Source: Escherichia coli
GTDB taxonomy: Bacteria; Pseudomonadota; Gammaproteobacteria; Enterobacterales; Enterobacteriaceae
DNA length: 23,492 nucleotides
Reading direction: 5' to 3' (one strand)
Assembly (NCBI RefSeq): GCF_003334765.1
Contig: NZ_QOWT01000046.1
The notes beneath the pieces are model-generated. The model saw only the letters and a list, made by a program, of their open reading frames with translations, was not told the DNA's origin and ran no database searches. Positions 17,277 through 19,180 of the stretch are shown piece by piece. Both the position numbers and the translations under genes were made by a program. Position 1 is the first letter of the stretch; every line of letters begins with the position of its first letter.

Positions 17277-17492
17277 ATGTACCAGATGGAAAAAATCACA
17301 ACAGGTGTGTCATACACCACGTCAGCGGTGGGAACGGGCTACTGGTTCCTGCAGTTGCTGGACAGGGTTTCCCCGTCTCAGTGGGCGGCAATAGGCGTGC
17401 TGGGGAGTCTGCTGTTTGGGCTGCTGACATATCTGACTAACCTGTATTTCAAAATCAGAGAGGACCGTCGTAAGGCTGCACGGGGAGAGTAA
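17277..17492 (+). CDS. Pinholin (S21-like class II holin) with dual-start motif
   Basis: [71 protein letters not shown] resembles phage 21 S as I recall it; Met1 and Met4 (17277, 17286) give the antiholin/holin dual start. Confidence 0.85.
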
Positions 17493-17496
17493 TTCA

Positions 17497-17847
17497 ATGA
17501 CTCAAAACTATAAACTGATTGTGAAAGGGATCCGCAATTTTGAGAATAAAGTTACGGTAACTTTAGCGTTACGGGACAAAAAACGCTTTGACGGTGAAAT
17601 TTTTGACCTGGACATCTCGCTGGACCGTGTTGAAGGTGCCGCGCTGGAGTTTTATGAGGCAGCAGCCAGAAGGAGCATCAGACAGGTCTTCCTGGATGTT
17701 GCTGCCGGGTTATGTGAAGGGGATGAGCAGTCGCCGGAAAAGCGCCCCGTAATTTTAGAGGCGCAGAATGTATGGATAACCTACAAAGGAAAGCTACCGG
17801 GAAGAATTACTGGTTCTCTGAAGACTCCTCCGGAATCACAACCTTAA
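17497..17847 (+). CDS. Hypothetical protein inserted between holin and endolysin (116 aa; YdfR/DUF1327-like by position)
   Basis: GGAGAG SD; begins 4 nt after the holin stop; Qin carries ydfR in the equivalent position. Confidence 0.55.
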   Translation: MTQNYKLIVKGIRNFENKVTVTLALRDKKRFDGEIFDLDISLDRVEGAALEFYEAAARRSIRQVFLDVAAGLCEGDEQSPEKRPVILEAQNVWITYKGKLPGRITGSLKTPPESQP

Positions 17848-17910
17848 GTCACTGACCGGAACAGATAAACCTGTCCGTGGGCAGAAACCGATAAATCCTG
17901 ATAAATATCC

Positions 17911-18444
17911 ATGAACGCAAAAATCAGATACGGCCTGTCGGCTGCCGTTCTGGCGCTGATTGCCGCTGGTGCGCCTGCGCCTGACATTCTCGACCAGTTT
18001 CTGGATGAAAAGGAAGGTAACCACACCACGGCATACCGTGATGGCGCGGGTATCTGGACCATCTGCCGCGGTGCCATCCTGGTGGATGGCAAACCTGTCG
18101 TTCCGGGCATGAAGTTGTCGAAGGAAAAATGCGACCGGGTTAACGCCATTGAGCGTGATAAGGCGCTGGCATGGGTGGAGAAAAACATCAGAGTGCCATT
18201 GAGTGAACCCCAGAAAGCGGGGATCGCGTCATTCTGTCCGTACAACATTGGCCCCGGTAAGTGTTTTCCGTCGACGTTTTATAAACGAATTAATGCAGGT
18301 GATCGCAGGGGAGCGTGTGAGGCGATTCGCTGGTGGATTAAGGACGGTGGCAGAGACTGCCGTATTCGCTCAAACAACTGTTACGGTCAGGTATCCCGTC
18401 GCGACCAGGAGAGTGCGCTGGCGTGCTGGGGAATTGACAGATAA
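17911..18444 (+). CDS. SAR endolysin (lysozyme with signal-anchor-release N-terminus)
   Basis: N-terminal hydrophobic, Gly/Ala-rich segment YGLSAAVLALIAAGAPAP followed by a lysozyme-like domain; pairs with the pinholin as in phage 21. Confidence 0.85.
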   Translation: MNAKIRYGLSAAVLALIAAGAPAPDILDQFLDEKEGNHTTAYRDGAGIWTICRGAILVDGKPVVPGMKLSKEKCDRVNAIERDKALAWVEKNIRVPLSEPQKAGIASFCPYNIGPGKCFPSTFYKRINAGDRRGACEAIRWWIKDGGRDCRIRSNNCYGQVSRRDQESALACWGIDR

Positions 18445-18538
18445 GCAGAATATTTTGCTGAAAAATGCGGTTTGCTCACACGGACGGATAACACGAAATC
18501 CTGCGAACTGACAAAAACTAAGAGAATAAAAGTAAAAA

Positions 18539-18573
18539 CCCCGTTTGTTGGCTGCAAGCGGGGTTTTGTGTTT
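18539..18573 (+). terminator. Intrinsic terminator downstream of the endolysin
   Basis: CCCCG-(15-nt loop)-CGGGG followed by TTTTGTGTTT. Confidence 0.55.
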
Positions 18574-18603
18574 CCTGACTCCGGAAAAGTCAAAGGAGAA
18601 AGT

Positions 18604-18741
18604 GTGTTTGATTTTAGAAAACTGATTCGGGAGATTCGAGTGATGGCTGAAAAATTATCCACCTGGAAGTTCATTCTTATCTGGCTGGTGTTTGTGATTA
18701 TGGCCTCCGGTTATTTCATCGGTCAGATACGCTGGTGGTGA
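18604..18741 (+). CDS. Possible small membrane protein (46 aa from GTG 18604, or 32 aa from ATG 18643)
   Basis: AAGGAG SD 5 nt before GTG 18604; C-terminal hydrophobic WKFILIWLVFVIMASGYFIG; stop lies 1 nt before the Rz ATG. Confidence 0.4.
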   Translation: MFDFRKLIREIRVMAEKLSTWKFILIWLVFVIMASGYFIGQIRWW

Positions 18742-18742
18742 A

Positions 18743-19180
18743 ATGAACCGCGTACTGTGCGTGGTCATCATTGCCCTGCTGGTGGCCTGTGGTGCGCTTA
18801 GTCTGGGGCTGAATCATTACCGTGATAACGCCATAACCTACAAAGAGCAGCGCGATAAAGCCACATCCACAATCGCTGATATGCAGAAGCGTCAACGTGA
18901 CGTAGCAGAACTCGATGCCAGATATACAAAGGAGCTTGCTGATGCTAACGCGACTATCGAAAGCCTCCGTGCTGATGTTTCTGCTGGGCGTAAGCGCCTG
19001 CAAGTCGCCGCTACCTGTGCAAAGTCAACGACCGGAGCCAGCGGCATGGGCAATGGAGAAAGCCCAAGACTTACAGCAGATGCTGAACTCAATTATTACC
19101 GTCTCCGAAGTGGAATCGACAAGATAACCGCGCAGGTCAACTACCTGCAGGAGTACATCAGGACGCAGTGCTTAAAATAA
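18743..19180 (+). CDS. Rz i-spanin
   Basis: 145 aa; N-terminal TM followed by NHYRDNAITYKEQRDK...RQRDVAELDARYTKELADA, closely resembling lambda Rz. Confidence 0.85.
   Translation: MNRVLCVVIIALLVACGALSLGLNHYRDNAITYKEQRDKATSTIADMQKRQRDVAELDARYTKELADANATIESLRADVSAGRKRLQVAATCAKSTTGASGMGNGESPRLTADAELNYYRLRSGIDKITAQVNYLQEYIRTQCLK
18942..19127 (+). CDS. Rz1 o-spanin lipoprotein (embedded +1 frame within Rz)
   Basis: AAGGAG SD; MLTRLSKASVLMFLLGVSAC with a lipobox Cys, then a Pro-rich mature part. Confidence 0.7.
   Translation: MLTRLSKASVLMFLLGVSACKSPLPVQSQRPEPAAWAMEKAQDLQQMLNSIITVSEVESTR

What the first reader, a model, noticed from the sequence alone, without database searches (positions are those of the whole stretch)
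17277..19180. Pinholin/SAR-endolysin lysis cassette carrying two extra genes
The S21-like pinholin with Met1/Met4 dual start and the SAR endolysin are separated by a 116-aa gene of unknown function. A terminator then precedes an SD-supported 32-46 aa membrane ORF that ends 1 nt before Rz. Inserts inside a lysis cassette may modulate lysis timing or exclusion.
Basis: partly seen in the sequence, partly recalled or inferred. Interest (0 to 1): 0.4.

Follow-up and report, generated by a model that had tools for sequence, protein, structure and literature searches.

The report
Prophage lysis cassette with two passengers
This is an ordinary, already-annotated E. coli prophage cell-bursting gene set that carries two real but uncharacterised passenger genes, which also turn up outside lysis cassettes in other phages and so are probably not dedicated lysis-timing genes.

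Summary
They are a P21-type class II holin with Met1/Met4, a 116-aa DUF1327/YdfR-family gene, a SAR-type GH24 lysozyme, a hairpin terminator, an SD-led small membrane ORF ending 1 nt before Rz, and Rz with embedded Rz1.

The 2-kb block is 100% identical in about 10 RefSeq E. coli chromosomes. It is at least 80% covered in 519 of 5426 complete genomes, and is present at about 88% identity in H-19B and in Stx1a/Stx2c phages. RefSeq already annotates both extra genes.

Both extras are real genes but separable passengers.
- K-12 Qin has ydfR but no R–Rz gap.
- Salmonella and Enterobacter cassettes have the small ORF but no DUF1327.
- Homologues of each also sit in tail or baseplate operons.

The DUF1327 N-domain is 80% identical to K-12 YdfR residues 1–74. 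A 2026 paper showed that region binds the RNase E catalytic domain. The small protein is under purifying selection and always travels with a covarying upstream hairpin and a non-ATG start. Neither has a demonstrated role in lysis.

Verdict: a known arrangement of low-to-moderate interest. The hairpin-plus-small-ORF module is the only part that looks undescribed.

The parts
17210..17238 (+). Hairpin terminator just upstream of the holin gene. It is context for the cassette and insulates it from upstream transcription that is not antiterminated.
   Evidence: Terminator scan: 12 pairs followed by TTTATTGTTG.
17277..17492 (+). Class II (P21 S-type) holin, 71 aa, with Met codons at positions 1 and 4.
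   Evidence: Pfam PF04971 at E=1e-32. PHROG holin families phrog_9876 and phrog_20. RefSeq calls it 'class II holin family protein'.
17497..17847 (+). DUF1327/YdfR-family protein, 116 aa and cytoplasmic. It has a structured beta-beta-beta-alpha N-domain (residues ~5-72) and a disordered tail.
   Evidence: Pfam PF07041 at E=5e-42. 80% identity to K-12 YdfR over residues 1-74. AlphaFold2 model with pLDDT about 90 for residues 10-70.
17911..18444 (+). GH24 lysozyme of the RrrQ/R21 type with a SAR-like N-terminal domain, 177 aa.
   Evidence: phrog_7 endolysin at E=2.5e-61. PDB 3HDE/3HDF/4ZPU at E~1e-15. 88% identity to RrrQ.
18445..18534 (+). Conserved non-coding leader directly after the lysozyme stop codon; role unknown.
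   Evidence: At least 85% identical in hundreds of Stx and lambdoid phages, including those lacking the small ORF. Recognisable in Salmonella. No convincing conserved RNA structure.
18535..18577 (+). Intrinsic-terminator hairpin with a T-tract. It is bidirectional in form and is an integral 5' part of the small-ORF module.
   Evidence: Covariation: 4 of 14 pairs change on both sides, 96.8% paired, 0 of 500 shuffles reach this. Present upstream of the ORF in Pseudomonas and SEN34 phages too.
18604..18741 (+). Small single-pass membrane protein of 45 aa from GTG. GGAG lies at 18595-18598. An invariant internal ATG at 18643 would give a 32-aa form. The stop lies 1 nt before the Rz ATG.
   Evidence: phrog_6632 end to end at E=2.6e-28. 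RefSeq WP_000459345.1. Homologues in 8 genera. Codon substitution pattern read. Model shows helix 4-17, a hinge, then helix 20-44.
18743..19180 (+). Rz i-spanin, 145 aa.
   Evidence: phrog_13 Rz-like spanin at E=3.3e-69.
18942..19127 (+). Rz1 o-spanin lipoprotein, embedded in the +1 frame of Rz, 61 aa, with lipobox V-S-A-C.
   Evidence: phrog_3198 Rz-like spanin at E=1.6e-27. Lipobox read from the translation.

Best explanation
The region is a Qin/H-19B-type lambdoid late lysis cassette.

Core mechanism, inferred from homology to phage 21. The class II holin accumulates in the inner membrane and depolarises it. The membrane-tethered SAR lysozyme is then released and activated. Rz/Rz1 then disrupt the outer membrane.

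The two extra genes are independently mobile late-operon passengers rather than core lysis genes.

1. The DUF1327/YdfR protein is a soluble cytoplasmic protein translated just behind the holin. [quoted passage not shown] It most likely acts on host RNA decay late in infection. This step is inferred.

2. The 45-aa protein is an N-in single-pass inner-membrane protein. It belongs to a compact module made of a terminator hairpin, an SD, a weak GTG/TTG start and the ORF. With no promoter found between the hairpin and the start, it should be made only by read-through, that is by Q-antiterminated late transcription. Here its translation is coupled to Rz (UGA-A-AUG). I infer it is a dose-limited, membrane-acting late accessory protein. 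Which membrane process it acts on remains open.
For: Identity of the core genes.

Prevalence and existing annotation.

The extras are separable.
- Qin has essQ-ydfR-rrrQ-rzpQ with no R-Rz gap.
- A Salmonella P22-like prophage has a PF16080 holin, a 162-aa lysozyme, the small ORF and Rz, with no DUF1327.
- Enterobacter prophages have a phrog_217 holin, a GH19 endolysin, the small ORF, and spanins of other families, phrog_1026 and phrog_1275.
- The small ORF lies between baseplate genes in L023, SEN34, Rac-SA53 and a Klebsiella prophage, and in the tail module of Pseudomonas phages.
- A distant DUF1327 lies between tail genes I and J.

The small ORF is a real gene.
- Window versus Salmonella: 13 synonymous and 16 mostly conservative non-synonymous codon differences.
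- Window versus L023: 11 synonymous and 4 conservative differences (hand count).
- The motif DFSK-LIRE-R-M is conserved from E. coli to Pseudomonas.

Hairpin covariation.

YdfR: 80% identity over residues 1-74. PMC13232886 reports that residues 1-72 of YdfR suffice for two-hybrid interaction with Rne and Rng, that Rne(1-598) co-purifies with Strep-YdfR, and that DNase-resistant nucleic acid is co-eluted.
Against: No experiment links either protein to any phenotype in a phage.
- ydfR overexpression changed few transcripts (PMC13232886).
- The small ORF sits directly upstream of the i-spanin in three unrelated cassette types. That could mean a genuine link to lysis or to spanins.
- The promoter scans used are crude, so expression in the lysogen is not excluded.
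- The holin's long form lacks the extra basic residue described for the S21-71 antiholin, so the dual-start logic may not apply as it does in phage 21.
Confidence: 0.6

Rival explanations
1. Both inserts are lysis-timing modulators. For example, the small membrane protein could act as an antiholin, a modifier of SAR-endolysin release or a spanin regulator, and DUF1327 as a cytoplasmic holin regulator.
For: - Both genes lie inside the cassette and are translationally linked to lysis genes.
- The small ORF lies immediately upstream of the i-spanin in three cassette types with non-orthologous holins, endolysins and spanins.
- A weak non-ATG start plus an invariant Met14 resembles the dual-start design of holins.
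- There is precedent for accessory membrane proteins controlling SAR endolysins, namely the Mu releasin gp25 (PMC9239132).
Against: - Homologues of both genes occur in tail and baseplate operons far from lysis genes.
- Many cassettes of the same type work without one or both genes: Qin lacks the small ORF, and the Salmonella and Enterobacter cassettes lack DUF1327.
- YdfR is soluble and binds RNase E.
- There is no similarity to DUF2730 or to any Pfam family.
Confidence: 0.2
2. The small membrane protein is a moron-type superinfection-exclusion or host-modifying inner-membrane protein, comparable to small membrane exclusion proteins carried in phage tail modules. DUF1327 is likewise a host-takeover moron.
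For: - Presence is patchy at junctions between otherwise syntenic late genes, both in lysis cassettes and in tail or baseplate operons, across Escherichia, Salmonella, Enterobacter, Citrobacter, Klebsiella, Providencia and Pseudomonas.
- The R-Rz gap is a variable slot. It holds ant and other small transmembrane ORFs in related phages, and up to four tandem small transmembrane ORFs in L011.
Against: - No promoter was found for expression in the lysogen.
- The terminator lies upstream of the ORF rather than downstream, which is the opposite of the classical moron layout.
- There is no match to PADLOC models.
Confidence: 0.15
3. The small ORF is a type I toxin-like hydrophobic peptide controlled by an antisense RNA that terminates at the bidirectional hairpin.
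For: - It is a 32-45-aa hydrophobic single-pass peptide.
- The hairpin has a good T-run on the minus strand as well.
- A minus-strand promoter-like site lies at 18726-18697.
- There is a weak Rfam ohsC-like hit of 18 bits against a gathering score of 50.
Against: - The minus-strand promoter-like site is not conserved in the Salmonella sequence or in L023.
- No Rfam family reaches threshold.
- The tight stop-start junction with Rz fits an operon gene, not a stand-alone toxin locus.
Confidence: 0.05

Closest known systems
E. coli K-12 Qin cryptic prophage cassette essQ-ydfR-rrrQ-rzpQ/rzoQ
   Same: Same gene order for the holin, DUF1327 and lysozyme. The lysozyme is 88% identical and the YdfR N-domain is 80% identical.
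   Different: Qin has no R-Rz gap: rrrQ and rzpQ overlap, with no leader, hairpin or small ORF. The YdfR C-terminal tail differs, and ydfR overlaps rrrQ instead of being 63 nt upstream of it.
Phage H-19B, Stx1a/Stx2c-converting phages and CP-1639 lysis regions
   Same: The whole S-DUF1327-R-hairpin-small ORF-Rz block is present at about 88% identity, and the R-Rz gap at 96-98%.
   Different: The H-19B record annotates only S, R and Rz. Some records call a 72-aa ORF that runs through the hairpin. A 1-nt indel changes the upstream frame, so that extension is not conserved.
Phage 21 lysis system (S21 pinholin/antiholin, R21 SAR endolysin, Rz/Rz1)
   Same: The holin belongs to PF04971 and has Met1/Met4. 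The lysozyme is homologous and co-linear with R21 (3HDE), with the same E35/D44/T50 spacing and a Gly/Ala-rich N-terminal domain.
   Different: From my own knowledge, phage 21 has no gene between S and R and none between R and Rz. The long holin form here adds M-Y-Q, not the extra positive charge said to define the antiholin (PMC9636201).
BP-4795/933W-type and 783R2/PhiR12_1-type R-Rz gaps
   Same: The same leader follows R, and the same slot is filled by accessory genes including small single-pass membrane ORFs directly upstream of Rz.
   Different: The contents differ: ant plus a 48-aa ORF; a 60-aa plus a 43-aa ORF; or four tandem small ORFs, of which only the first is related to the window's protein.
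Phage Mu releasin gp25 (DUF2730)
   Same: It is a small membrane-tethered accessory protein in a SAR-endolysin system (PMC9239132).
   Different: It has an N-terminal transmembrane domain followed by a cytoplasmic domain, which is the opposite order. There is no sequence or Pfam relationship. This is an analogy only.

Membership tests
P21 holin S / pinholin (PF04971) | Sequence membership covering both transmembrane segments | tested here: met
   PF04971 at E=1e-32, model positions 1-63 of 64.
P21 holin S / pinholin (PF04971) | Dual-start motif with two in-frame Met codons near the N-terminus | tested here: met
   ATG at 17277 and at 17286, giving M-Y-Q-M.
P21 holin S / pinholin (PF04971) | The long (antiholin) form carries an extra positively charged residue | tested here: not met
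   The extension is M-Y-Q with no Lys or Arg. The criterion is taken from PMC9636201.
P21 holin S / pinholin (PF04971) | Forms small heptameric pinholes that depolarise the membrane but do not pass endolysin | not testable with these tools
   Requires expression and physiology experiments.
SAR endolysin (R21/RrrD type, GH24) | Homology to a solved SAR lysozyme | tested here: met
   3HDE at E=8e-16, 3HDF and 4ZPU at 1.6e-15, co-linear from residue 30.
SAR endolysin (R21/RrrD type, GH24) | E-x8-D-x5-T catalytic spacing | tested here: met
   E35, D44 and T50, read from the translation.
SAR endolysin (R21/RrrD type, GH24) | N-terminal weakly hydrophobic Gly/Ala/Ser-rich signal-anchor-release domain | tested here: met
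   Residues 8-24 are GLSAAVLALIAAGAPAP, preceded by K4 and R6. This is a reading of the sequence only; no topology predictor was run.
SAR endolysin (R21/RrrD type, GH24) | Membrane release and activation when the proton motive force collapses | not testable with these tools
   Requires experiments.
Two-component spanin, embedded architecture | An i-spanin with an N-terminal transmembrane domain and an o-spanin lipoprotein encoded inside it in the +1 frame | tested here: met
   phrog_13 at E=3e-69 and phrog_3198 at E=1.6e-27. Rz1 (18942-19127) lies inside Rz and has lipobox VSAC.
DUF1327 / YdfR family | Pfam PF07041 match and similarity to K-12 YdfR | tested here: met
   E=5e-42. 59 of 74 residues identical to YdfR.
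DUF1327 / YdfR family | Binds the RNase E catalytic domain and co-purifies RNA | not testable with these tools
   Shown for K-12 YdfR only (PMC13232886).
phrog_6632 small membrane protein family | Full-length profile match and a conserved N-terminal motif followed by a transmembrane helix | tested here: met
   Positions 1-45 of 45 at E=2.6e-28. Alignments A1 and A5. Model.
Type I toxin-antitoxin | A conserved antisense or overlapping sRNA gene with its own promoter | tested here: not met
   A minus-strand promoter-like site is found only in the window. None is found in L005 or L023. No Rfam family reaches threshold.
Classical moron (promoter-gene-terminator unit) | Own promoter upstream and terminator downstream of the gene | tested here: not met
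   The terminator is upstream, and no promoter-like site lies between the hairpin and the start codon.
Classical moron (promoter-gene-terminator unit) | Present or absent between otherwise syntenic genes in related phages | tested here: met
Mu releasin (DUF2730) | Sequence membership, with an N-terminal transmembrane domain followed by a cytoplasmic domain | tested here: not met
   No Pfam domain is recorded for any family member. The order of helices is reversed.

The most novel reading that the evidence does not exclude
The unit made of a covarying hairpin, an SD, a non-ATG start and a 45-aa membrane protein with an invariant internal Met is an undescribed mobile late-operon module. It is shared by phages of Enterobacterales and Pseudomonas. 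In this reading it encodes a dual-start (45/32 aa), dose-limited regulator of an envelope step at the end of infection, for example spanin or SAR-endolysin control or exclusion. Alongside it, the holin-linked DUF1327 protein would be a phage-encoded RNase E modulator.
Probability: 0.15. Interest if true: 0.55.

Novelty: already known. Interest (0 to 1): 0.3.

Why it matters
The practical result is correct labelling. This is a standard Qin/H-19B-type prophage lysis cassette, not a new lysis system.

It does flag two very common prophage genes whose roles are unknown. One is present in roughly a tenth of complete E. coli genomes in this exact arrangement, and in many Shiga-toxin phages.

If YdfR-family proteins do modulate RNase E during late phage development, that would be a new host-takeover function sitting in Stx-phage late operons.

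If the small membrane protein affects lysis or exclusion, it could influence toxin and phage release from Shiga-toxin-producing strains.

Both questions can be tested directly with simple deletions.

Tried and rejected
1. **Stop-codon read-through fusion of R to the small protein.** In the window the frame is open from the R stop (TAA, 18442-18444) to 18741. A 1-nt indel in H-19B and Stx2 phages, and a 248-nt spacing in Salmonella, break that frame. Rejected as coincidence.

2. **The longer 65-89-aa versions of the small ORF.** Their N-terminal extensions are translations of the hairpin and are not conserved. Rejected.

3. **A known sRNA or cis-regulatory RNA in the R-Rz gap.** Nothing reaches a gathering score, and the best permissive hits are driven by the terminator. 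RNAalifold finds only the terminator and a 4-bp hairpin in the leader. A review of phage sRNAs lists nothing at this position.

4. **Type I toxin-antitoxin.** There is no conserved antisense promoter.

6. **Defence-system models.** PADLOC has no hit for either extra gene, and NCBIfam has none.

7. **Literature.** A search for 'ydfR' together with 'holin' found nothing. 'DUF1327' appears once, in passing.

8. **Planned scripted analysis.** The scripting machine was lost. The dN/dS estimate and a census of insertion slots were therefore replaced by hand counts on alignments.
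Full report
**1. What is there**

ORF listing and direct reading of 17000-19900 show a compact same-strand gene series.
- A hairpin terminator at 17210-17238.
- A 71-aa holin at 17277-17492, starting M-Y-Q-M.
- A 116-aa ORF at 17497-17847. It starts 4 nt after the holin stop, with GGAG inside the holin's last codons.
- A 177-aa lysozyme at 17911-18444.
- A 298-nt gap.
- Rz at 18743-19180, with Rz1 embedded at 18942-19127.

The gap holds three elements.
- A 90-nt stretch with no supported coding sequence.
- A 14-pair hairpin with a T-tract at 18535-18567.
- An SD (GGAG, 18595-18598), then GTG at 18604 opening a 45-codon ORF. Its stop (18739-18741) lies one base before the Rz ATG. 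An internal ATG at 18643 would give 32 aa.

The only correction is 45 aa rather than 46.

**2. Identity of the core genes**

- Holin: matches Pfam 'Bacteriophage P21 holin S' (PF04971) at E=1e-32.
- Lysozyme: a PHROG endolysin at E=2.5e-61. It is homologous and co-linear with the solved phage 21 SAR lysozyme (3HDE/3HDF) and with RrrD (4ZPU) at about 1e-15, and 88% identical to K-12 RrrQ.
- Read from the sequence, the lysozyme has the E35-x8-D44-x5-T50 spacing and a Gly/Ala-rich N-terminal segment preceded by K4 and R6.
- Rz and Rz1 match spanin PHROGs at 3e-69 and 1.6e-27.

How such a cassette works is established for phage 21 and summarised in PMC9636201. The pinholin depolarises the membrane, the SAR endolysin is released, and the spanins disrupt the outer membrane. 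For this locus that mechanism is inferred from homology.

One defining feature is not met. The long form of the holin adds M-Y-Q, with none of the extra positive charge described for the S21-71 antiholin.

**3. How common it is**

- The 2-kb block is 100% identical in about ten RefSeq E. coli chromosomes.
- It is covered at 80% or more in 519 of 5426 complete genomes.
- It occurs at about 88% identity in H-19B and in Stx1a and Stx2c phages.
- RefSeq annotates all five genes, including 'YdfR family protein' and a 45-aa 'hypothetical protein', WP_000459345.1.
- K-12 Qin carries essQ-ydfR-rrrQ-rzpQ.
- BP-4795 has the equivalent ORF47 between S and R.

The arrangement is known and annotated. Only the functions are open.

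**4. The DUF1327 gene**

- It matches Pfam PF07041 at E=5e-42.
- The family is narrow. There are 64 representatives among 1.84 billion 50%-identity clusters. AFDB relatives occur only in Enterobacterales.
- An AlphaFold2 model gives a confident three-strand sheet plus a long helix (residues 5-72) and a disordered tail.

The only experimental data come from a 2026 study (PMC13232886).
- K-12 YdfR residues 1-72 were isolated three times in a two-hybrid screen with RNase G as bait, and interact more strongly with RNase E.
- Rne(1-598) co-elutes with Strep-YdfR.
- The eluate carries DNase-resistant nucleic acid.
- Overexpression changes few transcripts.

The window's protein is 80% identical to YdfR over residues 1-74, so the same binding is a reasonable inference.

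The gene usually follows a PF04971 holin. A 38%-identical homologue lies between tail genes I and J in another phage.

**5. The small ORF is a real gene**

- It matches phrog_6632 end to end.
- Homologues occur in Escherichia, Shigella, Salmonella, Enterobacter, Citrobacter, Klebsiella, Trabulsiella, Providencia and Pseudomonas. All are 'hypothetical' and none has a Pfam domain.
- Codon differences, hand-counted from the alignments:

| Comparison | Synonymous | Non-synonymous |
|---|---|---|
| Window vs Salmonella L005 | 13 | 16, mostly hydrophobic-for-hydrophobic |
| Window vs L023 | 11 | 4, all conservative |

- The segment GY-IGQIRWW shows five synonymous changes in seven codons. This is the pattern of purifying selection on a protein.
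- The most conserved part is the N-terminal motif DFSK(L/I)IRE-R-M, which is kept in Pseudomonas phages.
- The model shows helix 4-17, a hinge, then a transmembrane helix 20-44.
- The first start is GTG or TTG in all six lineages examined, while Met14 is invariant and has GGAG 9 nt upstream. One locus (L012) has GTA at codon 1.
- A dual start giving 45-aa and 32-aa products is possible but untested.

**6. The hairpin belongs to the small ORF, not to the lysozyme**

In every lineage an intrinsic-terminator hairpin lies about 35 nt upstream of the start codon. This holds in:
- E. coli lambdoid phages;
- Salmonella P22-like phages;
- 783R2-type phages;
- the baseplate-operon copies;
- Salmonella phage SEN34;
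- Pseudomonas phage YMC11/02/R656.

Over 34 distinct sequences, 96.8% of cells pair, 4 of 14 pairs change on both sides, and no shuffle reaches this.

No promoter-like site lies between the hairpin and the ORF. Expression should therefore depend on read-through, which in a lambdoid late operon means Q-modified polymerase. Why a terminator is kept upstream of the gene is unexplained.

**7. Contexts of the small ORF**

| Slot | Host or phage | Neighbouring genes |
|---|---|---|
| Endolysin to i-spanin | Window type (E. coli) | PF04971 holin, GH24 SAR lysozyme, phrog_13 Rz |
| Endolysin to i-spanin | Salmonella | PF16080 holin, 162-aa lysozyme |
| Endolysin to i-spanin | Enterobacter | phrog_217 holin, GH19 endolysin, phrog_1026/1275 spanins |
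| Baseplate, V-like gene to wedge/sheath-initiator gene | L023, SEN34, Rac-SA53, Klebsiella | baseplate genes |
| Tail, K to I region | Pseudomonas prophages | tail genes |

K-12 Qin lacks the ORF entirely.

In related E. coli phages the same R-Rz gap holds other cargo. BP-4795 has ant plus a 48-aa transmembrane ORF, PhiR12_1 has two small transmembrane ORFs, and 783R2 has four in tandem.

The gap is therefore a variable slot, and the small ORF is a promiscuous late-operon passenger. Its recurrence directly upstream of three different i-spanins keeps a lysis-related role alive. Its presence in tail operons argues against a dedicated one.

**8. Most likely working, and rivals**

Shown here:
- gene identities;
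- coding status of the small ORF;
- selection on the hairpin;
- separability of the two extras;
- prevalence.

Inferred:
- the core cassette works as in phage 21;
- the DUF1327 protein binds RNase E, and possibly RNA, late in infection;
- the small protein is an N-in inner-membrane protein made only from antiterminated late transcripts, at low level because of its weak start, with Rz translation coupled to it through UGA-A-AUG.

I put about 0.6 on this 'ordinary cassette plus two mobile accessory genes' account. The rivals are:
- dedicated lysis-timing regulators, 0.2;
- exclusion or moron function, 0.15;
- type I toxin, 0.05.

**9. Rejected ideas**

- A read-through R-small-protein fusion. 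The shared frame in the window is not conserved.
- Longer versions of the ORF that run through the hairpin.
- A known RNA family in the gap.
- An antisense-controlled toxin.

**10. Verdict**

The arrangement is already known and annotated, and the functional suggestion is neither supported nor excluded. Interest is low to moderate. The part worth a wet-lab look is the hairpin-plus-small-ORF module, followed by the YdfR-RNase E lead.

Noticed in passing
window 18445-18534: A roughly 90-nt non-coding leader right after the lysozyme stop. It is at least 85% conserved in hundreds of Stx and lambdoid phages, including 933W-like ones that lack the small ORF, and is recognisable in Salmonella. It has no convincing conserved RNA structure. 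Its centre carries lineage-specific short palindromes (GTTGGCCAAC, TGGCGCCA), followed by the near-invariant (over 90%) CGGATAACA.
   Followed up: partly
L011 1895-2379 (Escherichia phage vB_EcoS-783R2); also L010 2657-2985 and L009 3338-3484: The R-Rz gap of related phages holds arrays of unrelated small single-pass membrane ORFs. L011 has four in tandem, and the last one (28 aa, ...AIRWW) ends 1 nt before Rz, like the window's ORF. Only two of the four are annotated in that record.
   Followed up: partly
window 19597-20217 (+) and 20159-21226 (-): A convergent, overlapping gene pair sits between Rz and the terminase. One is an sce7726-family protein (NCBIfam E=2e-54; PADLOC 'cll'). The other is a 'beta family' protein (PADLOC PD-Lambda-2_C at E=4e-32 and 'beta'). 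It looks like defence-type cargo in the slot between the lysis cassette and the terminase.
   Followed up: partly
window 14374-14564 and 14842-15051 (+): Two copies of the sRNA family STnc100 (136 and 165 bits) lie downstream of three tRNA genes (14049-14295) and upstream of the NanS-p-like SASA esterase gene (15274-17127).
   Followed up: no
window 1419-1470 (-), 9350-9524 (+), 23273-23471 (+): Rfam hits to DicF, to the sok antitoxin RNA (a hok/sok-type locus) and to IS009. In the identical RefSeq locus the terminase small-subunit gene is truncated next to an IS3 transposase, so the prophage is probably defective.
   Followed up: no
window 17277-17288: The holin's N-terminal extension is M-Y-Q, with no basic residue. 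The Met1/Met4 pair may therefore not give a charge-based antiholin as it does in phage 21.
   Followed up: partly
window 17848-17910: The lysozyme gene is separated from DUF1327 by 63 nt and has no recognisable SD before its ATG. In K-12 Qin, ydfR and rrrQ overlap instead.
   Followed up: no
protein P0198: A 3128-aa protein from the representative library has six stretches matching DUF1327 residues 10-58. This hints that the beta-sheet part of the domain also occurs as a repeat in a giant protein.
   Followed up: no
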